Origin: Bacilli bacterium
Lineage (GTDB): Bacteria > Bacillota_I > Bacilli_A > RFN20 > CAG-826
Length of the DNA: 64,000 bases
Assembly: GCA_024408335.1 (NCBI GenBank)
Contig: JAKSVB010000002.1
Span: forward strand, 90,630 to 154,629
Direction: 5' to 3'
Shown: positions 5,108-52,205 of the stretch, in pieces
Layout: each line of letters starts with the position of its first letter
Position numbering within the stretch: the stretch's first letter is position 1
Position numbers and translations under genes: made by a program
Notes under the pieces: generated by a model
Databases searched by the model: none
Seen by the model: the letters and a program-made list of their open reading frames with translations, nothing else
Told to the model about the DNA's origin: nothing

Positions 5108-5217
5108 ACAAAAAGTACACTCATAGTAGGTTGACTCGTTTTTGATTTTTGTTAATATTAACAAGGCTCTCAAGTCAGAACCTTTTTTATTTAATAAAAA
5201 ACGAAAGGAAAAAATCA

Positions 5218-32068: not shown

Positions 32069-32467
32069 TTATTTATGCTCTTTTGTAGCTTTTAGTGGCC
32101 TAACTTTTTCTTTCGATACATGGATTTCGACTGAGAAAGATAGGGTCTCGCACATCATAGAGACGACATTAGAGACCTCTTCTTGAATCCTTGTGCAAAG
32201 AGCGGCTATTTGAGTGATTTTTGGGTTCACTACGGTGTCGATTACGAAATCAACACGTCCGTCTTTTCTGAAAGACGCATGCACTGGGCGGACAAGAGAG
32301 AAGATTGAATTTAATTTGGCAATGATATTGTCTTGAACTAAGTCCTTGATCTTAACGTTTTGGAGGTTGTTGCTTGCGATTGTAGCAATCGTCTCAAACG
32401 CTTTTCTTGAGATGCCGCATTTTCCAGCGCGGTTTTTATATGTATCTAAGTAGTAAAATTCTGCCAT
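32069..32467 (-). CDS. Asp23/Gls24-family alkaline-shock-like protein (YqhY-like)
   Basis: 132 aa, DUF322/Asp23 pattern (GISRKAFETIA...). A YqhY-like gene sits in this xseA-nusB neighbourhood in Bacillus. Confidence 0.6.
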   Translation of the reverse strand: MAEFYYLDTYKNRAGKCGISRKAFETIATIASNNLQNVKIKDLVQDNIIAKLNSIFSLVRPVHASFRKDGRVDFVIDTVVNPKITQIAALCTRIQEEVSNVVSMMCETLSFSVEIHVSKEKVRPLKATKEHK

Positions 32468-32505: not shown

Positions 32506-34470
32506 TTAAGCAAGAAGAGCTGCAATTTTTTCTGCAACCTTTTCTGCTGTGAAGCCGCATTCTGCCATAACTAAGTCAGCTGGGCCGCTGTAACCGAATT
32601 CATCTTGTGAGATGACGTTATCAGCGTATTTGTACCATGAGAGGCCGCTAAGCATTTCGATTGCGACGCGCTTTGCCTTTGGAAGAGTGATGATTGCATC
32701 TTTTTCTTCTTTGCTAAGAGCTTCGAAACGTTCGACGCTTGGCATTGAGATGACTGAGCACTTGATGCTTTTTTCTTTTAAGAGCTTAGCTGCGTTGACG
32801 GCAAGACCGACTTCGCTACCAGTAGCGATGAGTTCGAGGTCAGCTGCTTCTTCCTTAACGGTGACGTAAGCGCCTTTAGCGACTGCTTCTAAGCATGAAC
32901 CTTCGATGTTTTGGAGGTTTTGACGTGAAAGGATGAGACAGACTGGGTGATCTTTGGTTGCAATAGCGAGTTTCCAAGCTGCAATGCATTCACGGGTGTC
33001 AGCTGGTCTAATGACTTCGACGCCTGGGATTGATCTAAGAGCAACGAGTTGTTCAATTGGTTCGTGTGTTGGGCCATCTTCGCCGACTGCGATTGAGTCG
33101 TGTGAGAAGAGGTAGATTGCAGGTAAGTGTTGGATAGCACTCATACGGATAGCGTTTTTCATATAGTCACTGAAGACTAAGAATGCGCCGACGTATGAAA
33201 TGACGCCGCCATGGAGAAGCATACCGTTTTGAGCTGCTGCCATGACGAATTCACGGATACCGAAGTTGATGTTCTTAGCTGCACGGTGTTCTGCATCGAA
33301 ACCTGCATCGCCTGGGATAGCGGTTTTGACTGATGAAGCGACGTCAGCACTGCCGCCAAAGGTGAATGGGACTGCTTTAGCGATTTCGACTAACATCTTG
33401 CCGCTGCTATTACGGGTTGCGTCTGGTTTTTCGCCAACTGCTGGTTCAGCGATAGCAAATGGAGTGACGTCACGAGCAAATGCTGCTTCGAAGACTTTTG
33501 CATCTTCTGGGTGGGTTGCTTTGTATTCTGCGTAAGCTGCTTGGTAAGCCTTGTAAGCTTCTGCGCCACGCTTGCCAAATGATTCAGCAAGGACTTCATA
33601 AGTTGAAGCAGGAACGGTGAATTCTGGTTCGTTCCAGCCGAGGTTGGCTTTGGTTTGTGCACCAAGTTCTGCGCCAAGAGGGCTGCCATGTGTGGTGTGG
33701 CTTCCAACTTTTGGTGTGCCATAACCGATGATGGTGTTGAGTTGGATCATGGTTGGCTTGTCGCTCTTCTTAGCAGCTTCGATTGCTGCGTCGATTTCTT
33801 CAAGATCGTTGCCGTCTTTGACTTCGATGGTGTTCCATTCTGAAGCTTGGAAACGAAGCATTTCGTCTTCTGTCATTGAGTTGGTGGTTGGACCATCAAG
33901 AGTTGATTGGTTCTTATCATAGATAAGAATGAGTTTGTTGAGCTTTTGTTTGCCAGCAAGAGAGATAGCTTCTTGTGAGATGCCTTCTTCTAAGCAGCCA
34001 TCGCCACAGAGACAGTAGGTATAGTGATTCATGATCTTCTCACCTTCTTGGTATGAAGCAGCAATGTGAGCTTCTGCCATAGCCATACCAACAGCTTGAG
34101 CAACGCCTTGGCCTAATGGGCCACCAGTTGCATCAACGCCTTTTGTCCAGCCGAATTCTGGGTGGCCTGGGGTCTTTGAATGCATTTGACGGAATGATTT
34201 GATGTCATCCATGCTGACTTCGTAGCCTGCAACGTGGAGCATAGCGTAAAGAAGTGCGCTATTGTGGCCGCTTGAAAGGACGAAACGATCACGGTTGATC
34301 CATTCTGGGTTCTTTGGATCTGCAACGAGGTGGTTCTTGTAAAGAACGTACATTGCTGGGGCAATATCAAGAGCCATGCCTGGGTGGCCGCTGTTTGCTT
34401 TGTTGATTTCGTCAATCAAGAGAGCACGGATTGCGCTAACAGCAAGCGCGTCGGTTTTGTCGAATTTCAT
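32506..34470 (-). CDS. tkt: transketolase
   Basis: N-terminal TPP motif SGHPGMALD...GDGCLEEG, 654 aa. Confidence 0.95.
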   Translation of the reverse strand: MKFDKTDALAVSAIRALLIDEINKANSGHPGMALDIAPAMYVLYKNHLVADPKNPEWINRDRFVLSSGHNSALLYAMLHVAGYEVSMDDIKSFRQMHSKTPGHPEFGWTKGVDATGGPLGQGVAQAVGMAMAEAHIAASYQEGEKIMNHYTYCLCGDGCLEEGISQEAISLAGKQKLNKLILIYDKNQSTLDGPTTNSMTEDEMLRFQASEWNTIEVKDGNDLEEIDAAIEAAKKSDKPTMIQLNTIIGYGTPKVGSHTTHGSPLGAELGAQTKANLGWNEPEFTVPASTYEVLAESFGKRGAEAYKAYQAAYAEYKATHPEDAKVFEAAFARDVTPFAIAEPAVGEKPDATRNSSGKMLVEIAKAVPFTFGGSADVASSVKTAIPGDAGFDAEHRAAKNINFGIREFVMAAAQNGMLLHGGVISYVGAFLVFSDYMKNAIRMSAIQHLPAIYLFSHDSIAVGEDGPTHEPIEQLVALRSIPGVEVIRPADTRECIAAWKLAIATKDHPVCLILSRQNLQNIEGSCLEAVAKGAYVTVKEEAADLELIATGSEVGLAVNAAKLLKEKSIKCSVISMPSVERFEALSKEEKDAIITLPKAKRVAIEMLSGLSWYKYADNVISQDEFGYSGPADLVMAECGFTAEKVAEKIAALLA

Positions 34471-34499: not shown

Positions 34500-36233
34500 T
34501 TAATCCTTTTTGATTTGAATGCCAACGTCATCAAGAGCGCCTTGGCTAACTTCGCCTGGAGCTTTTGACATTGGGTCGACTGCTTGAAGGTTCTTAGGGA
34601 AAGCGATGACATCACGGATGTTTTCGGTGCCGCTAAGAATCATTGATAAACGGTCAAGGCCAAGAGCGAATCCGCCATGAGGAGGAGCGCCATATTTGAA
34701 GGCATCAATGAACCAGCCGAACTTTCTAGCGGCGTCAGCATCGCTAAGACCCAAGAGTTTGAAGATCTTCCATTGGGTATCGTGGTCGTAGATTCTTAAT
34801 GTTCCACCACCAGCTTCGTAACCGTTGATGACGATGTCGTAAGCATAGGCTAAGACGCGTTCAGGATCTGTGTCAAGGTATTCAAGGTCTTCATCACGAG
34901 GACGTGTGAATGGATGGTGTTCTGCGGTGTATTGATTATCGCTTCCTTCGATCTTGTCGAACATTGGGAAGTTGATAATCCAGAGAAGATCATATGTGTT
35001 AGGTTTGATTAAGCCAAGTTCCTTAGCGAAGCGTGTTCTTAAGGCACCAAGACCGAAATCAACGAAACGTCTATTTGTTGAAGCTGCGATGAGGATGAGG
35101 TCATCTTCATTAAGGTTAAGGGTTGCAGCAAGTTCCTTTTGGCAGGCTTCGTCCATGAATTTGGCGAATGAACCATTTAAGGCACCTGCGTTATATTTGA
35201 GGATTGTTAAGCCCTTAAGGCCAAATTTCTTAGCTTCGTTAACGAGTTCATCTTGGACTTTGCGGCTTGCTTTTGCGCCATATCCAGGAACGACGATCGC
35301 ACGCATGTATTTTGCGTCTTTGAAGCCTTCGAATGAACTCTTCTTCATGACGTCATAGACGTTTTGGAGGAGTAAGCCATAACGAGTGTCAGGCTTATCG
35401 CTACCATAGTTATCCATAGCATCCCAGAAATCCATTCTTCTTAAAGGAAGCTCGATATCATAATTGACGATTTCCTTGAAGTAACGTTTGAGCATGCCTT
35501 CACACATGGTAAGAATCTCATCTTGACTCATGAATGAGGTTTCGACGTCGATTTGGGTGAATTCTGGCTGACGGTCAGCACGTAAGTCCTCGTCACGGAA
35601 GCATTTTGCGATTTGGTAGTAACGCTCAATGCCACCAATCATAAGAAGTTGTTTGAATAACTGTGGTGATTGAGGGAGAGCGTAGAAGTTTCCATGGTGA
35701 AGTCTAGCAGGAACGATGTAGTCTCTAGCGCCTTCTGGGGTAGCGAGGTTAAGGATTGGTGTTTCAACCTCTAAGAAGCGATTGCTATCGAGATATTCGT
35801 GGGTGATTTTGACGATTTGGCTTCTGACTCTGAGTTTTCTTTGAACTTCAGGACGGCGAAGATCGAGATATCTATATTGAAGTCTTGTGTCTTCGAGAGC
35901 GTCTGTTTTGTCAGCTATGATGAAAGGAGGGTTTTCCGCTTTGTTGATGACTTTGAGTTCGGAAACCACTACTTCGATTTCACCAGTCTTGAGTTTTGGG
36001 TTTGGAACGTCTTTCTTCGAGACGACGCCGGTAACAGAAATGACATATTCGTTTCTGGTATCAGGGACTTCAACGCCTTCCTTGACGTAAAGTTGGACGA
36101 TGCCGGTGTTATCACGGAGATCAATGAACTCAATAGCGCCAAGTCTTCTTCTTGTGGAGACCCAGCCGACGAGTTTGACTTCGCGTCCAACGTCCTTTAG
36201 CGATAATTCGCCATTGTAATCTGTTCTTTCCAT
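34500..36233 (-). CDS. aspS: aspartate--tRNA ligase
   Basis: N-terminal OB anticodon-binding domain and class IIb motifs (FRDEDLRADRQPEFTQID; GGGTLRIYD), 577 aa. Downstream of hisS. Confidence 0.95.
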   Translation of the reverse strand: MERTDYNGELSLKDVGREVKLVGWVSTRRRLGAIEFIDLRDNTGIVQLYVKEGVEVPDTRNEYVISVTGVVSKKDVPNPKLKTGEIEVVVSELKVINKAENPPFIIADKTDALEDTRLQYRYLDLRRPEVQRKLRVRSQIVKITHEYLDSNRFLEVETPILNLATPEGARDYIVPARLHHGNFYALPQSPQLFKQLLMIGGIERYYQIAKCFRDEDLRADRQPEFTQIDVETSFMSQDEILTMCEGMLKRYFKEIVNYDIELPLRRMDFWDAMDNYGSDKPDTRYGLLLQNVYDVMKKSSFEGFKDAKYMRAIVVPGYGAKASRKVQDELVNEAKKFGLKGLTILKYNAGALNGSFAKFMDEACQKELAATLNLNEDDLILIAASTNRRFVDFGLGALRTRFAKELGLIKPNTYDLLWIINFPMFDKIEGSDNQYTAEHHPFTRPRDEDLEYLDTDPERVLAYAYDIVINGYEAGGGTLRIYDHDTQWKIFKLLGLSDADAARKFGWFIDAFKYGAPPHGGFALGLDRLSMILSGTENIRDVIAFPKNLQAVDPMSKAPGEVSQGALDDVGIQIKKD

Positions 36234-36250
36234 AACAAATTTACCTTTCT

Positions 36251-37660
36251 TTATTCATCGTCATGATGATGGCAATGGCAGCCTTCTTCATGGCAGTGAC
36301 ATTCATGTTCTTCATCGCCGCATTCGCAATCGCATTCTTCGCAATCGCAATCGCATTCGCATTCGTGGCAATGGCAGTGATGTTCTTCTTCGCAACCGAA
36401 GATGTCATGGAGTTCTTCTTGAAGGTTCTCAAGAGAGATCTCCTGTTGTTCTTGTGTGGCGATGTTCTTGATCTTAAGGACTCCGTTTTCGAGTTCTTCT
36501 TCACCGACGATGAGGGCGTATTTAGCGCCAAGCTTCTCAGCTTTCTTGAACATCGTTCCGAATTTCATGCTTTGGAATGGTGAATCGGTTGAGTAACCGA
36601 AGGATCTACAAGCCATGGTGATTTCGAAAGCGTCGTTTAAGACTTTTTCGCCGACTGGCATGACATATAAATCAAGACCTTCTTCAATATCGTCTAAGAG
36701 ATGGTTTTCCATCATTAAGCTATAAAGACGTTCGACGCCCATTGCAAAGCCAACGCCTGCAAGATCTGGACCTCCGAGCTCTTTGAGGAGTCCGCCATAG
36801 TGGCCACCGCCACAAACAGCGCCGTAATCCTTGCCCTCAGGGCTAGTAAGATGGATTTCGAAGACGAATTCGCTGTAATAGTCTAAGCCACGGACGAGAT
36901 TCTCATCGAGTTCATATTCGATGCCCATAGCGTTGATGATTGAAAGGGTTTCATAGAATCTCTTTTCGCTAGCTTCGGTAAGGTAATCTTTGATTCTTGG
37001 AGCGCCTTTTGCGATCTCTTGGTCATGTTCGACTTTGCAATCGAGGATTCTAAGAGGGTTGAGTTCAAGACGTTCTTTGCAATCGCTACACATCTCGTCG
37101 ATATGGCCTTTGAAGTATTCGACAAGAGCTTCACGGTAGTTTGCTCTGGTTTCAGCATCTCCTAATGAGTTGATTTTGACTTTGACGTTTTGGAAGCCAA
37201 GCATTTGGAGGCCGCTGACGGCGAGAATGACGCATTCTGCATCTGCTCTAGCGTTATCTGATCCGACTTGTTCAATACCGAATTGATGGAATTGGCGGTA
37301 TCTTCCAAGTTGTGGTCTTTCATAACGGTATGCAGCGCCTGAATAGAATAATTTGAGTGGGAGATCACCAGCATAGAGTTTGTTGCTGATGATTGAACGC
37401 ATGACGCCTGCTGTGAATTCTGGACGCATGGTGACGCTTCTATTTCCTTTGTCGAGGAAGGTGTACATCTCTTTACGGACGATGTCACTTCCTGCGCCTG
37501 TGCCACGTGAGAAGACTTCTGTGTATTCAAGGGTTGGAAGCATGATCTCTTTGTAGTTATAAAGTTCGCAAGCAGCCGCTAAAACTGTCTCGATGTAGCG
37601 CATGCCTAAGACTTCTTTGCCATAAATATCATGTGTGCCTTTAACTGGTTGATATTGCAT
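36251..37660 (-). CDS. hisS: histidine--tRNA ligase with ~45-aa Cys/His/Glu/Asp-rich C-terminal tail
   Basis: Class IIa HisRS motifs (TLRPE..; GGGRYDGL-like GGGHYGGL) and an anticodon-binding domain. It ends with an in-frame tail ...EEHHCHCHECECDCDCEECDCECGDEEHECHCHEEGCHCHHHDDE. Confidence 0.9.
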   Translation of the reverse strand: MQYQPVKGTHDIYGKEVLGMRYIETVLAAACELYNYKEIMLPTLEYTEVFSRGTGAGSDIVRKEMYTFLDKGNRSVTMRPEFTAGVMRSIISNKLYAGDLPLKLFYSGAAYRYERPQLGRYRQFHQFGIEQVGSDNARADAECVILAVSGLQMLGFQNVKVKINSLGDAETRANYREALVEYFKGHIDEMCSDCKERLELNPLRILDCKVEHDQEIAKGAPRIKDYLTEASEKRFYETLSIINAMGIEYELDENLVRGLDYYSEFVFEIHLTSPEGKDYGAVCGGGHYGGLLKELGGPDLAGVGFAMGVERLYSLMMENHLLDDIEEGLDLYVMPVGEKVLNDAFEITMACRSFGYSTDSPFQSMKFGTMFKKAEKLGAKYALIVGEEELENGVLKIKNIATQEQQEISLENLQEELHDIFGCEEEHHCHCHECECDCDCEECDCECGDEEHECHCHEEGCHCHHHDDE

Positions 37661-37672
37661 ATGATTTCCTTT

Positions 37673-39922
37673 CTATTTCATAACGCGTTCACAGCTGTAA
37701 ACGCCTTTGACTTCTTGTATTGCTTGGAAGACCGTCGCTATCGTCTCTTTGTCTGGGACATAGATAGTGAGGTTAACGATATCGTGCATCGTCTTTGGGG
37801 CAAGGTGGATCTTAAGGTCGGTGACCAAGATTCCTTTTGATGAGAGGACACCCATCAAGTCGACGAGCAAGTTGCTTCTATCGTTCGCCGAGATTCTAAC
37901 CATTACCGGGAATTTGGCGGTCTTTCCTAAATTTTTGTTCCAGCTTACTGGGATTAGACGAGGTTTGCTCTTAAGTAAGTTAGGGCAATTCTCTCTATGG
38001 ACGACGATTCCTTTGCCATTAACGACATAGCCTACTATTTCGTCTCCCGGAACTGGCGTGCAGCACTTACCCATCGTAATGTGTAAGTTATCCGCGCCTT
38101 CGACGATGATTGGCGTATCAGCGTCGTTTTTGACATTGGATACGAGGTTCTTAGTGAATGATTGGCTCTTCTTCTTTCTAATGCCAAGGTAATCGATGAG
38201 GGCAAATGGCGCTGGATTTCTATTCGCGATAAGCTCATAGAGGTTTTCAAGCGATTTGGCCCCAAAGTGCTCCATGAGGACTGGGTCGTTGAGATATTTT
38301 TCCATCTCACCGCTTCCAATGCCTTGGGAAGCAAATGCCTCAAGCGCGTTTTCTTTGCCTTTTTCGATGATTTCCTCTTTGAGATATTCGTTCTTCTTTT
38401 GGAGGAATCTTCTAATATGGGCCTTAGCGCCTGATGTTTGAGCGATATCTAACCAAGATGGGTTAGGGCCGCTGGCGTTCTTGACCGTCCTAATTTCGCA
38501 GACATCACCGGTCTTTAAGGTTGTGCTAAGCGAGCAATGGGCGCCGTTGACGATTGCGCCAACCGCGCTTTCTGCGACTTTTGTGTGGATTCTATAAGCG
38601 AAGTCGAGGACCGTTGCCCCTGCTGGAAGATCGATGACCTTACCTAGTGGGGTGAAGACATAGACGTTAGCGTTGAAGACGTCGTGTTCGAGAGCTTCAA
38701 TGTATTCCTTAGCGTTTGTGTCGCTTGTGGCGTTAGACATCGAGACGAAGTCGCGGAACCAGTGAAGTTTCTCTTCGATATCCTTTTGTTCGGCTTGAGC
38801 GTTGTAGTTGCCGCCATCTTTGTATCTCCAGTGAGCGGCGACACCGCTTTCTGCGACTTCATCCATCTCCTCGGTTCTGATTTGAACTTCGTAGACGTTT
38901 CCGTCTCCAGAGATGATTGATGTATGGAGTGATTGATATAAGTTAGGTTTTGGGGTTGCTATATAATCCTTGAAACGTCCTGGGATTGGCTTATATGTCG
39001 CGTGGATGGTACCAAGAATCGTGTAGCAGTTAAGGACTGTGTCAGTGATGATACGAACCGCGAGGATGTCATATAGTTCATCGAATGAATGGTTTTTCTG
39101 ATACATCTTGCGGTAGATTGAATAGATTGATTTAACACGGGATTCGATTCTGAACTGGATTTTGTTTTCAAAGAGCAAGTCAGCGATTCTCTTTTGAAGG
39201 GCTCTAAGAGATTCCTGTCTATTCTCTTCTCTAGCGTTTAGAAGATTAAGGATTTCCGCGTATTTCTCAGGTTCGAGATACTTTAATGAGAGGTCTTCCA
39301 TCTCGCTTTGCATCTTGTAGATACCAAGACGGTGAGCGATAGGAGTAAAGACATCTAGCGTTTCTTGCGATAGAGCATGTTGTCTTTCAGGCTTTAAGGC
39401 ATCGAGTGTACGAAGGTTATGGAGACGGTCAGCAAGCTTAACGAGAATGACACGGACATCTCGGGCCATTCCAAGGAAAATCTTCTTATGGTCTTCCGCT
39501 TCAAAGTCTTGCTCGGTTCTATGTGAGAGCTTCATGCGTTGGATCTTAGTTAACGCATCAACGATCATAGCGACGTCTGGGGTAAATTCCCTTTTAATGT
39601 CCTCTACCGTTGTCTCCGTGTCTTCGACGACGTCATGAAGGAATCCTGAGGCCAGAGTTTCAGGACCGCCTTGAAGCTCGGCTAAGATGTAGGCGACTTC
39701 GAGAGGGTGCTGGATATAAGGCTCACCGCTTTTACGGAAAACGCCTTCATGTTGGCTCTTAGCGAACCTATATGCCTTAGCGACCATTTCCCTGTCTTTT
39801 GGGTTTTTGATGTAGGTATAGTAAAGATCTCTAAATTCCTCAAACGTATGCATTTTGTAGCCGCCATTTGGGACAAGAGCCTTAGGTTCAGTTGTGCTAA
39901 TTTCCTTCTTGATTTCTGACAT
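37673..39922 (-). CDS. relA: bifunctional (p)ppGpp synthetase/hydrolase (RSH; Rel/RelA)
   Basis: HD hydrolase domain (HPLEVA...HD), synthetase domain, TGS and ACT domains, 749 aa. Confidence 0.95.
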   Translation of the reverse strand: MSEIKKEISTTEPKALVPNGGYKMHTFEEFRDLYYTYIKNPKDREMVAKAYRFAKSQHEGVFRKSGEPYIQHPLEVAYILAELQGGPETLASGFLHDVVEDTETTVEDIKREFTPDVAMIVDALTKIQRMKLSHRTEQDFEAEDHKKIFLGMARDVRVILVKLADRLHNLRTLDALKPERQHALSQETLDVFTPIAHRLGIYKMQSEMEDLSLKYLEPEKYAEILNLLNAREENRQESLRALQKRIADLLFENKIQFRIESRVKSIYSIYRKMYQKNHSFDELYDILAVRIITDTVLNCYTILGTIHATYKPIPGRFKDYIATPKPNLYQSLHTSIISGDGNVYEVQIRTEEMDEVAESGVAAHWRYKDGGNYNAQAEQKDIEEKLHWFRDFVSMSNATSDTNAKEYIEALEHDVFNANVYVFTPLGKVIDLPAGATVLDFAYRIHTKVAESAVGAIVNGAHCSLSTTLKTGDVCEIRTVKNASGPNPSWLDIAQTSGAKAHIRRFLQKKNEYLKEEIIEKGKENALEAFASQGIGSGEMEKYLNDPVLMEHFGAKSLENLYELIANRNPAPFALIDYLGIRKKKSQSFTKNLVSNVKNDADTPIIVEGADNLHITMGKCCTPVPGDEIVGYVVNGKGIVVHRENCPNLLKSKPRLIPVSWNKNLGKTAKFPVMVRISANDRSNLLVDLMGVLSSKGILVTDLKIHLAPKTMHDIVNLTIYVPDKETIATVFQAIQEVKGVYSCERVMK

Positions 39923-39964: not shown

Positions 39965-41512
39965 TTAGAAAGTCTTTTCACAAATAATGTCTAAAGATTT
40001 GCGACCTTTGTACTCATTTATTCTAAATGTCGCAACGAAATCGACCTTGGATTCACCGACAAAACTGTCTTGGCTGATCGAGAAAGAAAAGAGCCTCGAA
40101 TCGGTTGATATTTTAGTTGAAAGATATTTGCCTTCTTTGATGTAAGTGAAGGTTCTTGGATCAAGATTATTTAGTAGAAATTTAGGAGTTTCCCAACAGA
40201 AGCCAAAAGGCGCAAAAGTCTCGATGATTCGGTAACTTTGCATTGTGCATTCACCTAAAGAAAGAGGAATTCCCGTCTTCTCTTTTGGAGAGAGTTTGTG
40301 CTTAACTGCGGCATAGAGATAATCCTTCTTGAAAGCCGCAAAATCCTCCACTCTGATTGACACTCCTCCAGCGCATGGATGGCCACCTTTTGAGAGTAAA
40401 TTTACCTTCGTTCCTTCAAGTGCTTTAAGGACATCAAAACCCTCTTCGCTACGCATCGAACCAACTAAAATATTTTCGTCGTTTTCTTTTTTCGAAAAGA
40501 CAATTACAGGCTTGTGATAGTTAGAAAGGAGTCTTGAAGCGAGTAAACCGTTAAGTCCTTCAGGGATTTCCGCGTTAACGATAATGGCAGGTTCGTCCTC
40601 ATTAATCACGAGGTTTTCAAAGGATTCTTTGGTTATTTCTTTCCTTCTTTCATATACCTCATTTATATAGTTTGCGATAAGCGTTTTGTCACTTTCTGGG
40701 TTACCGAAATACGCCAAAAGCCTATTTGGTTCAGTGCCTTTTTCAAGTCTTCCGATGGAGTTAAGCTTAGGGTTAATTCCCATTTGGAAAGTCGATGCAT
40801 CGAACTCTTTCGCGTCACTAAGAAGAGCAAATTCTTCATATCTATTCTTGTTAACGATGTCTAACATCAAACGAACGATTTCGCGGTTGTATTTCCTTAG
40901 CGGCATCATGTCGCTAATTGTGGAAATTGCGCCTAAGGAAAGAAGATAATCATCCACTCTATTTAATAAGGCGACACTAAAAACGAAAGAAAGATATCCA
41001 GCACTAATTGGTACATCTCCATAAGAAACGGTTTCTGGGTGAATTACGATATCCGTTTCCGGCTTAACTAAGTCAAATTCGTGGTGATCAAGAATGATGA
41101 CTTCCACTCCTAGGTTCTTAGCTTCTAGCAATGCCTCATGGGCTGTAACGCCATTATCGCAGGTGAAAATGATTTTAAATCCTTTGGCTGCGATTTTCTT
41201 TACATTAGCGACTGTTAAGCCATAACCATCGAGATATCTTGAAGGTATGTATCCAGCGCAATCAAGACCGAATTCTTTGAATGCACGAAGAAGAATCGAA
41301 GCGCTAGCAATGCCATCGACATCGTAGTCGCCATAGATAAGAATCCTCTCTTCGGTATCACGCGCCTTCTTAAGCCTTTCTATCGCTTTCTTGACCTCTA
41401 TTTGGTCATCGATCAAAGGGATATTACTAAAAGAAGGAGGAAGTATGAGTCCTTCATACTCCTCCTTCGTAATGCCGTAGTATGTAAGTAATCTATCGAG
41501 AAGGCTTTCCAT
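39965..41512 (-). CDS. recJ: single-stranded-DNA-specific exonuclease RecJ-like DHH/DHHA1 protein
   Basis: DHH motifs ILIYGDYDVDGIAS, ILDHHE and the DHHA1 GGGH. 515 aa. Located secDF-recJ-relA as in Bacillus. Confidence 0.8.
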   Translation of the reverse strand: MESLLDRLLTYYGITKEEYEGLILPPSFSNIPLIDDQIEVKKAIERLKKARDTEERILIYGDYDVDGIASASILLRAFKEFGLDCAGYIPSRYLDGYGLTVANVKKIAAKGFKIIFTCDNGVTAHEALLEAKNLGVEVIILDHHEFDLVKPETDIVIHPETVSYGDVPISAGYLSFVFSVALLNRVDDYLLSLGAISTISDMMPLRKYNREIVRLMLDIVNKNRYEEFALLSDAKEFDASTFQMGINPKLNSIGRLEKGTEPNRLLAYFGNPESDKTLIANYINEVYERRKEITKESFENLVINEDEPAIIVNAEIPEGLNGLLASRLLSNYHKPVIVFSKKENDENILVGSMRSEEGFDVLKALEGTKVNLLSKGGHPCAGGVSIRVEDFAAFKKDYLYAAVKHKLSPKEKTGIPLSLGECTMQSYRIIETFAPFGFCWETPKFLLNNLDPRTFTYIKEGKYLSTKISTDSRLFSFSISQDSFVGESKVDFVATFRINEYKGRKSLDIICEKTF

Positions 41513-44256
41513 TAGTCGTTGATACCAATGAAGATAGCTTCTTCAGGTTCGCTGCTCTTACGTTGGTTGGCTTTGTTAGCGGCTTTTCTAGCTTCTTGGG
41601 CTTTCTTGTAGCTTCCAGAAATTGAATTGCCTGCTGCTTTGAACCATTTACCAAAGGTAACAGCGAGTGGGACAAGAACAAAGAGAGCAAGTGCTGTAGC
41701 GATTGCTAAGCCAATGATTGCTCCAACGAACATGATCCAGTATTGTCTTGGACCAAATGCGACGAACGCTAAGAGGAATGCGCATAACATTCCAGCGAAG
41801 ATAAGGATTTCCCCTGCTTCTTCGCCAACGCCTTTTTCTAAGCAAGCGTTGCGGAAGGCGAGAGCGCTCTTATCGCGTTCACGTGAATCCTTAACGATTT
41901 CGTTTCCTCTATTAAGGAGATAGATAGCGAAATAAAGGAATGCAAGCGAAGCAACGACTGCTGCGATTGAAGCGATTGGAGTGACTGGTAATCTTGTTAA
42001 AGCGAAGAAACCAACGGTAACGACGCTTGTGCCAAGACCAAGGAGTCCAGTGACGAAGCCACGGGCAAGGCCGAATCTGAACATCATGTAGACGGCTGCT
42101 GCAACGAAGCCAAGGCCGAGGCCAAGATAAACAGTGCCAAGGTTTGGAGTGCCTGCTTGATAACGGACTGTAGCGCTTGTTGCGTAGATTGATGTGCCAC
42201 CGAATTCTTTAGCGGCTTCTTCGATAGCTAAGTTAAGGTTATTGAAGGTTGTGCCTGCAACTTTGAATGTTTCTTTTTCGTTATTGTCAGCGAAATAGAC
42301 GCTAAGTGGGATTTCGAAGTTATAGACATTGTAGGTTGTTTCGTCGTCGTTAAGATAGACGCTTGATTGTTCAAGGACGATCTTATCGGCGCTTGTTAAG
42401 TCTGCTAAGGTGCCATCTTTGTATTCGACCGTTGAAAGGAAGTCCATAGCTTGATCTTTCTTATAAAGAAGCTTGGTGCCTTGTGATTCTGTGTCGACAC
42501 GGTATTCGACTAAGAGTGATGTGGTGTTGTCGTATGCACCGCTGTAGTTATAGACATTACCAAGGGCATTGGTGACAATGATGCCACCAAGAGCAGCAAC
42601 AAGAAGAGCGATAGCGCCGATTAAGAATGGGCGTTTTGCTTTCTTGAAGTCTTTGTTAGCGAACTTACCGAAGTATGTTTGCTTTTCGTCTTTAAGAGAA
42701 TTTGGAATGACGCTGGTGTTGATTCCATAGAGTTTGCCATAGCTCTTTTCTGTGGAAGCGTCATTAGCAAGGAGTGCGCCTTGGATACGGAGAAGGATAA
42801 GGTTAAGGACTAAGCCGACTGCGGTTGTAAGGATGAGAGCTAAGCCTAAGTTACCGATTGTTGAGTGGACAAAGGCATAGACGAAGATACCGACAAGGAT
42901 TGAAACGACAGAGATGTCGATGGTTGGCCATAAAGCCTTCTTCATGCCTTCTTGGTGAGCTTTCTTGATTGTACGTCCTTCGTAGATTTGTTGTTTGAAT
43001 TTGTGGAAATAGTACATGCCACCGAATGAAGTGACCATTGCGCCAAGAGCGAAGCCGACGAGAGCGCCGATACCGAATTGTGCGCTGAAGTAAGCAAACA
43101 TAAGGATTGCGCCTTCGGTTGCAACTGCTGCGTTAGCTAAGATTGAGACAGCGCCGATTCTGTAGAATAAGCAAAGGGCTACGATGCCAAGAGCAAGAGA
43201 AACAAGAGCTGCGATTGCTGTTGGGCCGAAGTTGATGGCTAAGTGCCAATCGCCTGCTGTGACGAGTGGATCAACGCTTGGTGAGACGACGGTAGCGTGT
43301 GAGAATGAGACGTCATAGTCATATTCGCTAGCGTTAAGAACGTCGCGGTAGAATTTAGCAGCTTTGAATGCAGCGTTTGCTTTGCTTGGGTCGTAGCTGC
43401 CATCTTTAATAGCTGCGCTTGAAGGAATGAGCTGGATCTTCTTGTAGTTGTTGTCATCGTCAGCTGGGTCAACCCACCAGGAGTTGGCTGCTTCTTGACC
43501 GAAGAGAAGACGTGAACCCATGTTGACGTTGAAGTCTTCGTGGTTTGTATCTGAAGCAATAGCATAGCTATCATTTTCTTGTTTGTGATCCCAGAGACAG
43601 AAGAGAGTGCTCTTTGCTGCGACTGTTTCATTGCCGTCTTCATCGGTTTCAGCATCGTTAGTGTTGTCTTTGCAGTATTTGATGAGTTCGTTTAATGGGC
43701 CGTTTTCACCTTGGAAGGTTTCCTTGACTGGGATAGTAACGACTGGGATTGAGTTAACGTATTCGATTTGAGCGTTTGTTCCTTCTTCGAAGAGGCCGTT
43801 ATCAGCGAATTCAGGGCTGTTTGGTGCTTCAGCCATGATGTCTTCGTCACGTGATCCTGCTTCAACGGTGACGTGTTGGCCACTGTAAGCAAGATAGGTT
43901 TGAAGGTAGCTATATTCAACATCGTCACTGCCTTGGGTACGGACAGAGATTTTGACGGTGTGATAACCTTCTTTGATGACACTGGCATTGATGTCCCAGA
44001 ATTCGAGACGTTTTTCCATTTCTTTTGCGACTGCGTCAACTGCACCGTAGTTACGGGTTGTTGCATCTGCACCAATGTAACTTTCTGGGTTGACACCTTC
44101 GTATGTGGAATCTTTGACGGAAATGTTGAAATACAAATCCTTACCGCTGCCATAGCTGACATCGGTGTCCATTTTACTAAGCGATGAAGTGATGGTGACA
44201 CCAACTCCTAAAAGGAGGGAAGCACCAAGGAATAAATAAGCTAATCTTCTACGCAT
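41512..44256 (-). CDS. secDF: protein translocase subunit SecDF (fused SecD-SecF)
   Basis: Two RND-like 6-TM modules, each after a large extracytoplasmic domain. Start is chosen at MRRRLAYLFLG (44256) with GGAGGA RBS 7 nt upstream; the track ORF starts at 44304. Confidence 0.8.
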   Translation of the reverse strand: MRRRLAYLFLGASLLLGVGVTITSSLSKMDTDVSYGSGKDLYFNISVKDSTYEGVNPESYIGADATTRNYGAVDAVAKEMEKRLEFWDINASVIKEGYHTVKISVRTQGSDDVEYSYLQTYLAYSGQHVTVEAGSRDEDIMAEAPNSPEFADNGLFEEGTNAQIEYVNSIPVVTIPVKETFQGENGPLNELIKYCKDNTNDAETDEDGNETVAAKSTLFCLWDHKQENDSYAIASDTNHEDFNVNMGSRLLFGQEAANSWWVDPADDDNNYKKIQLIPSSAAIKDGSYDPSKANAAFKAAKFYRDVLNASEYDYDVSFSHATVVSPSVDPLVTAGDWHLAINFGPTAIAALVSLALGIVALCLFYRIGAVSILANAAVATEGAILMFAYFSAQFGIGALVGFALGAMVTSFGGMYYFHKFKQQIYEGRTIKKAHQEGMKKALWPTIDISVVSILVGIFVYAFVHSTIGNLGLALILTTAVGLVLNLILLRIQGALLANDASTEKSYGKLYGINTSVIPNSLKDEKQTYFGKFANKDFKKAKRPFLIGAIALLVAALGGIIVTNALGNVYNYSGAYDNTTSLLVEYRVDTESQGTKLLYKKDQAMDFLSTVEYKDGTLADLTSADKIVLEQSSVYLNDDETTYNVYNFEIPLSVYFADNNEKETFKVAGTTFNNLNLAIEEAAKEFGGTSIYATSATVRYQAGTPNLGTVYLGLGLGFVAAAVYMMFRFGLARGFVTGLLGLGTSVVTVGFFALTRLPVTPIASIAAVVASLAFLYFAIYLLNRGNEIVKDSRERDKSALAFRNACLEKGVGEEAGEILIFAGMLCAFLLAFVAFGPRQYWIMFVGAIIGLAIATALALFVLVPLAVTFGKWFKAAGNSISGSYKKAQEARKAANKANQRKSSEPEEAIFIGIND

Positions 44257-44372
44257 AAATATCCTCCAAGCAATTTGCCCTGCACAAAAAGAATGTGCTG
44301 GCAAGCCCTACAAGTTTACAACATACGCGAGCACGCGTACAAGAACAAAACATAGTTTTGTATTAAAAATCG

Positions 44373-49619: not shown

Positions 49620-52205
49620 TTATAAAGATGCGAGTTTGTTGAGAACTGACTCAAGAAGAGCTTTGTTTTTCTCGAGTTTCTGAGTCTCGTTTTCGATCTT
49701 TTCTTTTGGAGCTTTTGCAACGAATCCAGGGTTTCCGAGCATCTTCTCACTACGAGCGATTTCGAAGCTTAAAGTCTCTTTGTCTTTAAGGAGTTTTTCC
49801 TTTAAGAGAGCTGGATCAACATCCTCTTCCACCATCATTTCGAATCCTGGGTAAAGGAAGCTTGAACCACCTAAGTTTTCTTTCTTGACTTCATATGATG
49901 AAGCGAAGGTGAAGCGCTTTAAGTAGTCGCCGTAACCTTTGAATGGCTCAGCTGGTGAGATGACGAGTTTGACTTTAGCGTTTGGAGCCATACCACCTGT
50001 TGATTTGTAGTTACGGATGTCTTTGATCATGCCTTCTAAGATAGCAAGTTTTTCGACAGCTTTCTTGTTAAGAAGGGTGCGGTCATATTCTGGATAGAGT
50101 TCATCCATGATGCTTTCTTTGTGGGCAGGAAGGGAAAGATACATTTCTTCTGTGACAAATGGAGTGTATGGATAAATCATGAGGATGATGTCCTTCATGA
50201 CGGTATAGAGAACGTCTTTTGTGACTTCTTTTTCTTCGCCTTCTTTAGCTAAAGCAACCTTACTCATTTCAAGATATGATGAGCAGAAATCGTCATAGAC
50301 GAAGTTATAAAGAATCGATGAGGCCTGACTAAAGTGGTATTTATCCATTTCAGCGCGGACTGCTTTGATTGTCCTCATAAGCTTATCGACGATAGCGGCA
50401 TCAAGAACGCCGAGAGTCTTCTTGTTTAATGGTCTAGGAGTGTAGTCCTCGCCAAGAACGCCTTCAACATAACGGCAGGCGTTCCAGATCTTATTGAGGT
50501 AGTTTTGAGCGCTTGCGACCTTTTCATCGATGTAACGCATATCCATGCCTGGAGTGGTGTTATTGGTGATGAAGTAACGCAATGCGTCAACGCCATATTT
50601 CTCAATGACGTCGATTGGGTCAACGCCGTTTCCAAGTGACTTAGACATCTTTCTGCCTTGTGCGTCACGGATAAGACCATGGATGACGACCTCATGGAAT
50701 GGTGATTTATCGGTGAAGTGAAGAGATTGGAAAACCATACGGCTAACCCAAAAGAAGATGATGTCATAGCCAGTGACTAAGACGCTAGTTGGGAAGTAAC
50801 GTTTGAAATCAGCTGCTTCCTCGTTTGGCCAGCCAAGGGTTGCAAATGGCCAAAGAGCGCTGCTGAACCATGTATCAAGGACGTCTTCGTCTTGCTTCCA
50901 AAGAGTTGGATCCATTGCCTCTTCTGTGACAACGAGTTCGCCTGTTTTGATGTTTGTGTATGCTGGAATACGGTGTCCCCACCAAAGTTGACGGGAGATG
51001 CACCAATCCTCAACGCCGCTCATCCATTGGATAAGGACTTTTTCGAAACGTTTTGGGATGAAATTGACTTTGTCGCTTCCTTTTTGGGTTGCAAGAACCT
51101 TCTCAGCAAGAGGTTTCATACGGACGAACCATTGTTTCGAAAGCATTGGCTCAACGACGGTGTCACTTCTTTCTGAGTGGCCGACTGAGTGAGTGATCTT
51201 TTCAATTTTGATGAGTTTGCCTGCTGCCTTAATATCTTCGACAAGGGCCTTACGGCATTCATAACGGCTCATGCCTTGGTATTTGCCAGCTTTCTCATTC
51301 ATATGGGCTGTTTCATCGATGCACTTAATGAATTCGAAGCCGTATTTCTTTCCTAGAAGGAAGTCGTTAGGGTCGTGAGCTGGTGTGCACTTCATCGCGC
51401 CGGTACCGAATTCGATATCGACATATTCATCTGCCATAAGAGGGATTTCCTCGCCATTGGCAGGGTTAATGACCATCTTACCGACTAAATGTTTGTATTT
51501 CTTATCGTTAGGGTTAACGAAGACCGCTGTATCGCCAAACATGGTTTCTGGACGGGTCGTGGCGACGGTTAATGATTCGTTAGTGCCAACGATATCATAC
51601 TGGAAGTAGAAGAACTCGCCTTCATCATCTCTATGTATGACTTCAATGTTACTTAATGCGGTTCTAAGTTCTGGGTCCCAGTTGATGATCTTTTCGCCTT
51701 GGTAGATGAGACCTTCGTTATAAAGAGTGACGAAAACGTGTCTAACAGCTGCGCTTAAGCCTTCATCAAGTGTAAATCTTTCTCTTGAGTAGTCGACGGA
51801 AAGACCTATTTTGGCCCATTGAGCGTGGATTGTGTCAGCGTATTCGTGTTTCCATTCCCAGGCTTTCTTAAGGAATCCTTCTCTTCCGAGATCAAAACGG
51901 GAAACGCCTTCTTCAGCGCGAAGCTTAGCTTCGACTTTGGCTTGGGTTGCGATACCTGCGTGGTCCATTCCAGGAACCCAAAGGACATCGTATCCAACTT
52001 CTCTTTTGTATCTTGCGATAATGTCTTCGATCGTTGTGTCCATGGCGTGTCCAAGATGGAGCTTACCAGTGACGTTTGGTGGAGGAATAACCATTGAGAA
52101 AGGCTTTTTGCTTAAGTCTCTTCCACCTTTGAAGTAATCGTTTTCTTTCCATTTCTCGTATTTGCCTGCTTCGACAGTACGAGGGTCATAGTGCTTATCT
52201 AACAT
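49620..52205 (-). CDS. valS: valine--tRNA ligase
   Basis: HIGH (PNVTGKLHLGHA) and KMSKS motifs, editing domain, C-terminal coiled coil. 861 aa. AGGAGG RBS. Confidence 0.95.
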   Translation of the reverse strand: MLDKHYDPRTVEAGKYEKWKENDYFKGGRDLSKKPFSMVIPPPNVTGKLHLGHAMDTTIEDIIARYKREVGYDVLWVPGMDHAGIATQAKVEAKLRAEEGVSRFDLGREGFLKKAWEWKHEYADTIHAQWAKIGLSVDYSRERFTLDEGLSAAVRHVFVTLYNEGLIYQGEKIINWDPELRTALSNIEVIHRDDEGEFFYFQYDIVGTNESLTVATTRPETMFGDTAVFVNPNDKKYKHLVGKMVINPANGEEIPLMADEYVDIEFGTGAMKCTPAHDPNDFLLGKKYGFEFIKCIDETAHMNEKAGKYQGMSRYECRKALVEDIKAAGKLIKIEKITHSVGHSERSDTVVEPMLSKQWFVRMKPLAEKVLATQKGSDKVNFIPKRFEKVLIQWMSGVEDWCISRQLWWGHRIPAYTNIKTGELVVTEEAMDPTLWKQDEDVLDTWFSSALWPFATLGWPNEEAADFKRYFPTSVLVTGYDIIFFWVSRMVFQSLHFTDKSPFHEVVIHGLIRDAQGRKMSKSLGNGVDPIDVIEKYGVDALRYFITNNTTPGMDMRYIDEKVASAQNYLNKIWNACRYVEGVLGEDYTPRPLNKKTLGVLDAAIVDKLMRTIKAVRAEMDKYHFSQASSILYNFVYDDFCSSYLEMSKVALAKEGEEKEVTKDVLYTVMKDIILMIYPYTPFVTEEMYLSLPAHKESIMDELYPEYDRTLLNKKAVEKLAILEGMIKDIRNYKSTGGMAPNAKVKLVISPAEPFKGYGDYLKRFTFASSYEVKKENLGGSSFLYPGFEMMVEEDVDPALLKEKLLKDKETLSFEIARSEKMLGNPGFVAKAPKEKIENETQKLEKNKALLESVLNKLASL

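What the first reader, a model, noticed from the sequence alone, without database searches (positions are those of the whole stretch)
36251..36400. HisRS carries a Cys/His/acidic CxC-repeat C-terminal tail
The last about 45 residues (EEHHCHCHECECDCDCEECDCECGDEEHECHCHEEGCHCHHHDDE) are in frame with a normal histidyl-tRNA synthetase. They resemble metal-binding tails (metallochaperone or His-rich Ni/Zn-binding tails), not any HisRS domain. The DNA is a GCAATCGCATTC-type imperfect repeat, so the tail may be evolutionarily labile.
Basis: seen in the sequence. Interest (0 to 1): 0.5.

Follow-up and report, generated by a model that had tools for sequence, protein, structure and literature searches.

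The report
Metal-ligand-rich tail on histidyl-tRNA synthetase
A normal histidyl-tRNA synthetase from an uncultured gut bacterium ends in a real, fast-evolving 48-residue tail made almost only of cysteine, histidine and acidic residues; nearly all its close relatives have such a tail, and it most likely binds metal ions, though this has not been tested.

Summary
ORF 36251-37660 (- strand, 469 aa) is a bona fide HisRS (TIGR00442, 455 bits). Residues 422-469 form an in-frame tail with 14 Cys, 11 His and 20 Asp/Glu (chance P about 7e-26). It is encoded partly by a TGCGAN hexamer repeat.

It is not an artefact. Two independent metagenome assemblies carry the same gene with 6- and 12-nt in-frame deletions inside the repeat, while the 420-aa body is 99.8-100% identical.

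Of 121 close homologues (56-100% identity, uncultured 'Bacilli/Mollicutes' gut MAGs), 106 have at least 2 Cys+His in the tail (60 Cys+His, 46 His-only). Eight more have one to three such residues, and seven have none; those seven sit in a nested subclade that has largely lost the tail. About 140 of 150 diverse bacterial HisRS representatives, and all solved HisRS structures, lack it. His and Cys substitute for each other, from 0 His/12 Cys to 6 His/0 Cys. AlphaFold gives the tail pLDDT <50.

Best reading: a disordered, composition-selected metal-binding extension (Zn/Ni/Cu), analogous to H. pylori HspA or the plant HMA4 C-terminus. Its physiological role is inferred only. The same tail type occurs on DUF1292/YrzB proteins of other Firmicutes, which argues against a HisRS-specific codon-sensing device. 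I rate it a new variant of a known kind, of moderate interest.

The parts
36251..37660 (-). hisS, histidyl-tRNA synthetase, 469 aa including the tail
   Evidence: TIGR00442 hisS equivalog 455 bits (cut-off 287) over aa 4-409. The HisZ model reaches only 160 bits against a cut-off of 272. Pfam hits: PF13393, PF00587, PF03129. Best PDB match is S. aureus HisRS 1qe0, E = 6e-114. AF2 mean pLDDT 88.6.
36410..36670 (-). Anticodon-binding domain (aa 331-417), the last globular domain before the tail
   Evidence: PF03129 matches aa 331-417. In the AF2 model the last helix is aa 413-425 at high confidence.
36254..36397 (-). Cys/His/acidic C-terminal tail, aa 422-469 (14 Cys, 11 His, 20 Asp/Glu, 3 Gly)
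   Evidence: Direct translation. No Pfam or PDB match even at E<=10. AF2 pLDDT <50 with no secondary structure for aa 428-469. Tails of the same composition are present in 106 of 121 close homologues.
36319..36376 (-). Imperfect tandem hexamer repeat (TGCGAN)n encoding Cys-Asp/Glu dipeptide repeats
   Evidence: TRF reports periods 6, 12, 21 and 27 with 76-94% matches.
36354..36365 (-). Site of strain-level in-frame length polymorphism (6-nt and 12-nt deletions in two other assemblies)
   Evidence: DNA alignment A2 of the window with L082 (SRR17543907) and L081 (SRR21576090). The gene bodies are 98% identical in DNA and 99.8-100% identical in protein.
36251..36253 (-). TAA stop codon of hisS, 17 nt upstream of the aspS start
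   Evidence: The AGAAAGG ribosome-binding site of aspS lies in the gap.
34500..36233 (-). aspS (AspRS, 577 aa), the downstream operon partner; it has no Cys/His tail
   Evidence: ORF list. In syntenic loci the product carries PF01336, PF00152 and PF02938. C-terminal 30 residues hold 0 Cys+His.
37673..39922 (-). relA/spoT-family (p)ppGpp synthetase/hydrolase, 12 nt upstream of hisS; there is no room for a T-box leader
   Evidence: Synteny and Pfam in L081 and L083. The Rfam gathering scan of the whole window found 0 families.

Best explanation
The tail is a genuine, translated, lineage-specific extension of an otherwise ordinary, essential HisRS. It is disordered when metal-free, and what is conserved is its composition rather than its sequence: thiolate (Cys), imidazole (His) and carboxylate (Asp/Glu) ligands at high density. 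I infer that it wraps several soft or borderline metal ions into small thiolate/imidazole clusters. Zn(II) is the most likely metal; Ni(II), Co(II) and Cu(I) are possible. That would make each HisRS dimer a cytosolic metal buffer or store, and perhaps a donor, as shown for the His/Cys-rich C-terminal extension of H. pylori GroES (HspA) and the di-Cys plus His-stretch C-terminus of plant HMA4. Length and sequence drift quickly through replication slippage in the TGCGAN / CAY codon repeats, while selection keeps the reading frame and the ligand-rich composition.

Shown here: reality of the tail, its reading frame, its clade-wide presence, its hypervariability, Cys/His interchangeability, predicted disorder, and its absence from other HisRS.

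Inferred only: metal binding, which metal, and the physiological role.
For: (1) The tail is real and in frame in three independent assemblies, and the indels are multiples of 3 inside the repeat.

(2) Across 121 homologues the tails are 10.9% Cys, 13.7% His and 36% Asp+Glu. The bodies are 1.4%, 1.6% and 16.5%.

(3) Tail sequence is unalignable but composition is kept down to about 46-50% body identity (P0130, P0131, P0137). Short Cys/His tails also occur in some Erysipelotrichaceae and Anaeroplasmataceae MAGs.

(4) About 140 of 150 diverse HisRS representatives, and all solved HisRS, end at about residue 420 without a tail.

(5) His and Cys replace each other. There are Cys-only tails (P0009, P0019, P0037, P0089), His-only tails (46 of 121) and every mixture, with about 30 state changes on an NJ tree. 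The property these two residues share is metal ligation.

(6) A frameshift to +1 would give an open Ala/Ile-rich tail, yet no homologue shows one. This implies protein-level selection.

(7) Cys is normally strongly depleted from prokaryotic low-complexity regions (PMC6821194), so drift is an unlikely source.

(8) A subclade has a discrete H-x(2,3)-C-x-C-P-x-C motif, i.e. four ligands.

(9) Experimentally characterised analogues exist: HspA (PMC4671568), mycobacterial GroEL1 (PMC10170517) and HMA4 (PMC6255694).

(10) The same tail type appears on all 45 retrieved members of an unrelated family, DUF1292/YrzB. This points to a portable, host-independent function.
Against: - No metal-binding measurement exists, and AF2 gives no fold for the tail.
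- There is no homology to any curated metal-binding family. The best result is PF00131 Metallothionein at E = 0.58, and only for a relative's tail.
- One nested subclade (P0049, P0050, P0052, P0061, P0062, P0088, P0103) lost the tail cleanly with the operon unchanged, so it is dispensable.
- Short tails such as 'EGHED' carry too few ligands to matter as a store.
- No metal-homeostasis gene is linked to hisS among the window ORFs I annotated.
- Why HisRS is the carrier is not explained.
- RF39/RFN20-type gut lineages are reported to use [FeFe]- rather than [NiFe]-hydrogenases (PMC7301438), so the Ni-delivery logic of HspA may not apply.
Confidence: 0.55

Rival explanations
1. The tail is a functionless by-product. 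It would be a slippage-prone low-complexity expansion of the naturally acidic, disordered C-terminus of HisRS, tolerated because it does no harm.
For: - Extreme length and sequence variability, even between strains with identical bodies.
- Clean loss in one subclade.
- Predicted disorder.
- The tail is encoded by tandem hexamers.
- The nearest tail-less relatives (L001-L005) already end in acidic runs.
Against: - The composition is held across more than 100 orthologues and down to about 46-50% identity.
- It is enriched about 8-fold in the two rarest and most reactive residues.
- Cys is otherwise avoided in prokaryotic low-complexity regions (PMC6821194).
- The open +1 frame is never observed in any homologue.
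- The same composition has arisen on DUF1292 proteins.
Confidence: 0.15
2. The tail gates the enzyme itself. An acidic, metal-responsive tail on the anticodon-binding domain would act as a nucleic-acid mimic or a redox/metal switch that tunes tRNA-His binding or aminoacylation according to metal or thiol-redox status. Binding of an Fe-S cluster is one possible version.
For: - The tail leaves the last helix of the anticodon-binding domain.
- It carries a net charge of about -20.
- It is Cys-rich and belongs to a strict-anaerobe-type organism.
- The window has no T-box in front of hisS, so another form of control would be plausible.
- The HisRS body carries an all-or-none C-x2-C-x13-C triad that may itself be a metal site.
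Against: - Tails vary from 4 to 90 residues with no conserved docking motif.
- His-only tails have no redox chemistry.
- The same tail is found on DUF1292, which has no tRNA-binding domain.
- C-x-C spacing is not a typical 4Fe-4S motif.
- Nothing here tests activity.
Confidence: 0.12
3. The tail works at the level of translation. A run of His codons (plus Asp codons) at the 3' end of hisS, just before aspS, would sense charged tRNA-His/tRNA-Asp by ribosome pausing, like a his-leader peptide, and so replace the missing T-box.
For: - Many relatives end in 3-6 consecutive His codons.
- hisS-aspS is a tight operon with a 17-nt gap.
- No T-box was found in the window.
- The RNA of the region folds somewhat better than shuffles, z = -3.1.
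- The idea that HisRS level limits His-rich proteins has been raised in the literature (PMC2923632, title and abstract seen).
Against: - Several tails have 8-12 Cys and no His at all.
- Glu and Cys are as abundant as His and Asp.
- DUF1292 proteins in an alaS operon carry the same composition.
- No terminator-like element lies between hisS and aspS.
- Pausing at the end of hisS would lower HisRS output exactly when more is needed.
- The RNA stem is a by-product of self-complementary UGCG repeats and cannot be conserved, given the sequence turnover.
Confidence: 0.05
4. The tail is an assembly or sequencing artefact: a frameshift or chimera that fuses non-coding repeat DNA to hisS.
For: The region is a low-complexity repeat in a metagenome-assembled genome.
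Against: - The exact protein is deposited in NCBI as MCQ2799504.1 and is seen on two contigs.
- Two other assemblies from different sequencing runs give the same tail with in-frame indels.
- More than 100 orthologues from JGI, ENA, NCBI and Logan have equivalent tails.
Confidence: 0.01

Closest known systems
H. pylori HspA (GroES) C-terminal His/Cys-rich extension
   Same: It is a lineage-specific C-terminal extension on an essential housekeeping protein. It is rich in both His and Cys and absent from orthologues outside the lineage. It has been shown to sequester Ni and to act as a metallochaperone (PMC4671568).
   Different: The host protein differs (co-chaperonin versus class II aaRS). The HspA tail is about 27 residues and conserved within Helicobacter, whereas this tail is 4-90 residues, hypervariable even between strains, and far more acidic and Cys-rich. 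The Ni-enzyme context (urease, [NiFe]-hydrogenase) is not evident here.
Hpn / Hpn-2 and mycobacterial GroEL1 His-rich tail
   Same: These are low-complexity His runs with Cys pairs and acidic residues. P0002-type tails (CCCGHHHDDEE repeats) resemble the His-run/Cys-pair style reported for Hpn. They act as metal storage or buffering by composition rather than by fold (PMC4671568, PMC10170517).
   Different: Hpn is a stand-alone small protein. The GroEL1 tail is His-only and binds Cu(II). There is no sequence homology to either.
Plant HMA4 C-terminal extension (di-Cys motifs plus terminal His stretch)
   Same: It has the same architecture as many of these tails: repeated CC / CxC motifs followed by a terminal His run. 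The di-Cys motifs give nanomolar Zn(II) affinity (PMC6255694).
   Different: HMA4 is a eukaryotic membrane P1B-ATPase. Its tail regulates or feeds a transporter, not a soluble enzyme.
Metallothioneins (e.g. PF00131; bacterial SmtA/MymT types)
   Same: About 30% Cys, C-x-C and CC(C) motifs, no aromatic residues in the tail, and a disordered apo state.
   Different: The tail is not a stand-alone protein, and half of its ligands are His. It is very acidic and has no significant profile match.
Canonical bacterial HisRS (S. aureus 1qe0, T. thermophilus 1adj/4rdx, E. coli 1kmm)
   Same: The body aligns end to end (aa 4-421) at E = 1e-82 to 6e-114, with class II core, insertion domain and anticodon-binding domain.
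   Different: All solved HisRS end at about residue 420-424 and none has the tail. This clade also reads GGGHY instead of the usual GGGRY in the HisB motif.

Membership tests
Histidyl-tRNA synthetase (class IIa, hisS) | Scores above the curated cut-off of the hisS equivalog model over its full length | tested here: met
   TIGR00442: 455.4 bits against a cut-off of 286.75; aa 4-409 match model positions 1-405 of 406.
Histidyl-tRNA synthetase (class IIa, hisS) | C-terminal HGTP anticodon-binding domain is present (this distinguishes HisRS from the paralogue HisZ) | tested here: met
   PF03129 at aa 331-417, E = 1.4e-14. The HisZ model TIGR00443 gives only 160 bits against a cut-off of 271.65.
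Histidyl-tRNA synthetase (class IIa, hisS) | Conserved catalytic motifs (motif 2 RYERPQ..RYRQF, HisA RGLDYY, HisB GGGRYD, motif 3 GFAMGxER) | tested here: inconclusive
   Motif 2, HisA and motif 3 are present and invariant in alignment A1. HisB reads GGGHYGG, an R->H change shared by the whole clade and by a few other HisRS. The effect on activity is unknown. The gene sits in the conserved relA-hisS-aspS operon, and no second hisS is visible in the window.
His/Cys-rich metal-sequestering C-terminal extensions of housekeeping proteins (HspA type) | Lineage-restricted C-terminal extension that is absent from orthologues elsewhere | tested here: met
   Present in 106 of 121 close homologues. Absent from about 140 of 150 diverse representatives and from all PDB HisRS.
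His/Cys-rich metal-sequestering C-terminal extensions of housekeeping proteins (HspA type) | High density of His and Cys ligands | tested here: met
   25 of 48 residues are Cys or His, P = 7e-26. Clade-wide the tails are 24.6% Cys+His against 3.0% in the bodies.
His/Cys-rich metal-sequestering C-terminal extensions of housekeeping proteins (HspA type) | Demonstrated stoichiometric metal binding and a metal-related phenotype | not testable with these tools
   This needs ICP-MS or ITC on the protein with and without the tail, plus genetics. The organism is uncultured.
Metallothionein | Match to a metallothionein profile; small stand-alone Cys-rich protein | tested here: not met
   No Pfam hit for the window tail at E<=10. 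The best hit for any tail tested was PF00131 at E = 0.58, 10.7 bits against a cut-off of 23. The tail is fused to a 420-aa enzyme.
Zinc ribbon / zinc knuckle | Two ligand pairs with CxxC / CxxH spacing that fold into a knuckle | tested here: not met
   The window tail has C-x-C spacing throughout and no CxxC pairs. A related subclade has H..CxCPxC, but AF2 gives that tail pLDDT <50 as well.
Leader-peptide / attenuator-type amino-acid sensor | Short regulatory ORF with codon run upstream of the regulated gene, coupled to alternative terminator/antiterminator RNA structures | tested here: not met
   The codon run is the 3' end of a 469-codon gene. No terminator-like site lies between hisS and aspS. 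There is no Rfam family in the window. Several orthologous tails have no His codons.

The most novel reading that the evidence does not exclude
The tail makes HisRS a metal-coupled synthetase. Histidine is a major low-molecular-weight ligand of Zn/Ni in the cytosol. A high-capacity Cys/His tail tethered to the enzyme could strip metal from His-metal complexes, or report metal load. tRNA-His charging, and through the adjacent relA the stringent response, would then track metal status. In genome-reduced gut Bacilli without T-box control this would be a new way of linking metal homeostasis to translation. A wider version: these lineages spread their metal buffer over tails on several housekeeping proteins (HisRS, DUF1292/YrzB and others) instead of using dedicated metallothioneins.
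Probability: 0.1. Interest if true: 0.75.

Novelty: new variant of a known kind. Interest (0 to 1): 0.42.

Why it matters
Appended domains of bacterial aminoacyl-tRNA synthetases are few and mostly tRNA-binding or editing modules. A clade-wide metal-ligand tail on HisRS did not turn up in the literature I could search. If it binds metal, it extends the HspA/GroEL1 principle to the translation apparatus of abundant but uncultured gut bacteria: an essential, abundant protein doubling as a metal buffer. It would also give a natural set of hundreds of variable-length Cys/His tags for studying how composition alone sets metal affinity.

Two practical points follow. The strain-level length polymorphism is a possible marker for strain tracking. 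These proteins would also co-purify on IMAC and may confound metalloproteomics. If the tail does nothing, it is still an unusually clear case of a Cys-rich low-complexity region maintained in bacteria, where such regions are otherwise rare.

Tried and rejected
- **Tail-only word search.** Searching the 5.8-billion-protein index with the tail alone returned nothing, apparently because low-complexity words are not indexed.

- **Genome-contig scan with the full protein.** The source species and its named GTDB lineage could not be fixed. 'RF39-like' rests on source names ('Bacilli bacterium', 'Mollicutes bacterium', 'Candidatus Enteromonas sp.') and my own recollection. NCBI taxonomy has no bacterial Enteromonas entry.

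- **Metagenome DNA pattern scan for (Cys-Asp/Glu)4.** It hit mostly microsatellites in non-coding or eukaryotic DNA. Only L090, and perhaps L111, were informative.

- **Same-genome test for DUF1292 tails.** I looked for a DUF1292 gene in the window and in all hisS loci with an HMM and found none. The DUF1292 contigs have 29% GC and sporulation genes, so they come from a different lineage.

- **Profile and structure searches with tail sequences.** Pfam and PDB searches gave no significant hit.

- **AF2 of a 'knuckle-type' tail, P0117.** No confident fold.

- **Codon-sensing idea.** Rejected for the reasons listed under the rival explanations.

- **RNA-element idea.** The fold z-score is -3.1, but this is explained by self-complementary UGCG repeats, and there is no Rfam hit.

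- **Literature.** Six searches found no description of a HisRS or DUF1292 Cys/His tail.
Full report
**What is in the sequence**

The window's - strand carries the operon recJ (39965-41512), relA/spoT (37673-39922), hisS (36251-37660), aspS (34500-36233) and tkt (32506-34470). The hisS product is 469 aa.
- The NCBIfam hisS equivalog TIGR00442 scores 455 bits (cut-off 287) over aa 4-409.
- The HisZ model falls well below its cut-off.
- Pfam places the class II core at aa 8-312 and the HGTP anticodon-binding domain at aa 331-417.
- Solved bacterial HisRS align to aa 4-421 and then stop. S. aureus 1qe0 is 420 aa (E = 6e-114); T. thermophilus and E. coli HisRS also end there.

After the last helix (aa 413-425 in the AF2 model) the ORF continues in frame with GCEEEHHCHCHECECDCDCEECDCECGDEEHECHCHEEGCHCHHHDDE and a TAA stop.

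**More than chance**

The tail has 14 Cys and 11 His in 48 residues. The other 44 proteins of the window contain 1.05% Cys and 1.87% His, which gives a binomial P of 7e-26. None of those proteins has more than 3 Cys+His in its last 30 residues. That includes three other synthetases in the window: GlyRS, AspRS and ValRS. So this is not a genome-wide compositional habit. On the DNA, TRF finds an imperfect hexamer array at 36319-36376. On the coding strand this array reads (TGC GAN)n, i.e. Cys-Asp/Glu repeats.

**Not an artefact, and labile**

The exact protein is in NCBI as MCQ2799504.1 ('MAG: histidine--tRNA ligase [Bacilli bacterium]'). Its 90% cluster holds variants of 465, 467 and 469 aa.
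- Three of them have a 420-aa body that is 99.8-100% identical to the window protein.
- Their tails differ by 2- or 4-residue indels plus C->S, H->N and E->D changes.
- I fetched two of these from independent sequencing runs (L082, L081). The DNA is 98% identical through relA and hisS: 25 differences in 1260 nt of hisS body, all synonymous in L082 and one non-synonymous in L081.
- The only length differences are 6-nt and 12-nt deletions inside the hexamer array, at about 36354-36365.

A second cluster (80% identity, P0002) varies from 459 to 477 aa. The variation comes from the copy number of a CCCGHHHDDEE-like unit.

**Distribution**

I examined the 120 best database homologues plus the query. 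They share 56-100% identity and come from NCBI, JGI, ENA and Logan metagenomes. Where named, they are called 'Bacilli bacterium', 'Mollicutes bacterium' or 'Candidatus Enteromonas sp.'. Tail classes:

| Tail class | Number of 121 |
|---|---|
| Cys+His (at least 4 ligands) | 60 |
| His only (e.g. ...EEDHHHHE) | 46 |
| Fewer than 4 Cys+His | 8 |
| No Cys or His | 7 |

- Residues beyond the anchor near the C-terminal helix number 8 to 97.
- Pooled tail composition is E 22%, H 14%, D 13%, C 11%, G 9%. The bodies have C 1.4% and H 1.6%.
- On an NJ tree of the bodies, the seven tail-less sequences fall in one nested subclade, together with one near-tail-less sequence. This indicates a secondary loss.
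- That loss is clean: P0049 keeps the same recJ-relA-hisS-aspS-tkt synteny (L083).
- The Cys/His/both/none state changes about 30 times on that tree.

A phmmer scan of 1.84 billion representatives returned 150 diverse HisRS. Only the ones nearest the query carry Cys/His-rich ends: P0130, P0131, P0133, P0137, P0139 and the fragments P0177, P0209 and P0258. In GTDB genomes, Paenibacillus, Clostridia and Negativicutes HisRS have no tail. A few Erysipelotrichaceae, Anaeroplasmataceae and Anaerorhabdus MAGs have short ones, e.g. HDDHHGECHNENCKCKGE.

**What the pattern implies**

- The tails cannot be aligned, yet their composition is maintained over deep divergence.
- Frame +1 of the tail DNA is open and would give an Ala/Ile/Asn-rich tail, but no homologue shows that. 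Selection therefore acts on the protein frame.
- Cys is normally among the most depleted residues in prokaryotic low-complexity regions (PMC6821194).
- His and Cys are interchangeable. P0009, P0019, P0037 and P0089 have 8-12 Cys and no His. P0075 has 6 His and no Cys.

What Cys, His, Asp and Glu share is metal ligation. One subclade has condensed the tail to a four-ligand motif, H-x(2,3)-C-x-C-P-x-C (P0097, P0110, P0115, P0117, P0120). Another subclade has H-C-H-C-H/Y-x-C, which is also how the window tail begins (HHCHCHEC). The long tails therefore look like tandem expansions of such a unit.

AF2 predicts the body with pLDDT >90 and the tail with pLDDT <50 and no secondary structure. This holds for the window protein and for a knuckle-type relative. 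It fits a region that is disordered without metal. No Pfam or PDB entry matches any tail tested.

**Mechanism proposed**

The best-supported reading is a polydentate metal-binding extension. Zn(II) is most likely; Ni, Co and Cu(I) are possible. It would act as a cytosolic buffer or store, and possibly as a donor. Documented analogues are:
- the His/Cys-rich extension of H. pylori GroES (HspA), which sequesters Ni and serves hydrogenase maturation (PMC4671568);
- the His-rich tail of mycobacterial GroEL1, which binds Cu (PMC10170517);
- the di-Cys plus His-stretch C-terminus of plant HMA4, which has nanomolar Zn affinity (PMC6255694).

All of this is inference from composition, evolutionary behaviour and analogy; no binding was measured. 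The Ni-delivery logic is doubtful, because RF39/RFN20-type gut lineages are reported to have [FeFe]-hydrogenases (PMC7301438). Why HisRS is the carrier remains unexplained.

**A second carrier**

A metagenome scan for DNA encoding (Cys-Asp/Glu)4 mostly hit microsatellites. It also found L090, an alaS-ruvX-DUF1292 operon. Its 122-aa DUF1292/YrzB protein ends ...AEEHECDCECDCDCDDEDEDDCDCCCCHHHHDDEE. All 45 database homologues of that protein (PF06949, 107-140 aa) carry the same kind of tail, with 5-15 Cys and 0-7 His in the last 45 residues. These contigs have about 29% GC, and one carries spoVA genes. They therefore belong to a different, spore-forming Firmicute lineage. The tail type is thus a recurrent, portable device rather than something peculiar to histidine charging.

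**Rivals**

1. *Neutral slippage junk.* Favoured by the variability and by the clean loss in one subclade. Opposed by the conserved, improbable composition and by frame maintenance.
2. *A switch on the enzyme itself* (acidic tRNA mimic, redox or Fe-S sensor). Not excluded, but there is no conserved docking motif, and DUF1292 carries the same tail.
3. *A His-codon sensor replacing the absent T-box.* In its favour, the Rfam scan found no RNA family at all in the window. Against it are the His-free tails, the identical composition in an alaS operon, the lack of any terminator between hisS and aspS, and the wrong sign of the feedback. The RNA fold z-score of -3.1 is explained by self-complementary UGCG repeats.
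4. *Artefact.* Refuted above.

**Comparison and novelty**

The protein is a member of HisRS by every sequence test except one clade-wide substitution: GGGHY in place of GGGRY in the HisB motif. The tail works like, but is not homologous to, HspA/Hpn/HMA4/metallothionein-type ligand-rich regions. Six literature searches found no description of such a tail on HisRS or DUF1292. The searchable library is incomplete, so this is absence of evidence only. I rate it a new variant of a known kind, with interest about 0.4. It is a solid, clade-wide and previously unremarked feature with a plausible but untested function. It does not challenge current understanding unless the tail proves to couple metal status to tRNA-His charging.

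Noticed in passing
L090:10974-11342 (+); proteins P0280-P0324; L204:10001-10381: DUF1292/YrzB (PF06949) proteins in alaS-ruvX-DUF1292 operons of low-GC gut Firmicutes (one of the two contigs read carries spoVA genes) all end in the same kind of Cys/His/acidic tail (...CxCxC...CCCC-HHH-DDEE). All 45 retrieved homologues have it, making this a second, unrelated carrier family.
   Followed up: partly
window 36791-36811 (aa 284-290 of HisRS): The HisB motif reads GGGHYGG instead of the usual GGGRYD. All 129 close homologues share the R->H change, as do L001-L005, P0140, P0147 and P0254. By contrast, 108 of about 119 diverse representatives have Arg at this position. The change is not strictly tied to the tail.
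   Followed up: partly
window 37034-37090 (aa 191-209 of HisRS: CSDCKERLELNPLRILDCK): The insertion-domain triad C-x2-C-x13-C is all-or-none across 150 diverse HisRS: CCC in 99, SSS in 20, other Cys-free combinations in 10, and only 1 partial. This pattern suggests an unremarked metal site (or a disulfide) in the HisRS body of many bacteria.
   Followed up: partly
whole window 1-64000: The Rfam gathering-threshold scan finds no RNA family at all. There is no T-box leader, although the window holds four aaRS genes: glyS 5142-6599 (+), hisS, aspS and valS 49620-52205 (-). In Bacillus these genes are T-box regulated. relA stops only 12 nt before hisS.
   Followed up: no
window 41512-44304 (-) and 32069-32467 (-): A 930-aa ORF between ruvB and recJ, and a 132-aa ORF between tkt and nusB, have no Pfam match at E<=1e-5.
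   Followed up: no
proteins P0003, P0014, P0024, P0025, P0026, P0209 (C-termini): A subclade with very long tails (58-97 residues) shares a conserved terminal motif, L(V/M)KEGCACSDAD(F/Y)...KGKK, after the variable Cys/His part. This is the only alignable element seen in any tail.
   Followed up: no
window 36215-36410 (-): The mRNA of the tail region folds better than shuffled controls (-54.3 kcal/mol, z = -3.06). The stems are formed by the self-complementary UGCG(A/U) Cys-codon repeats. This is probably a by-product of the repeat, but it could affect slippage or translation.
   Followed up: partly
window 1794-3017 (+): A 407-aa protein has only a Peptidase_C39 domain hit (aa 6-125) and no recognisable ABC-transporter part. 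It sits next to ybeY-era-recO.
   Followed up: no
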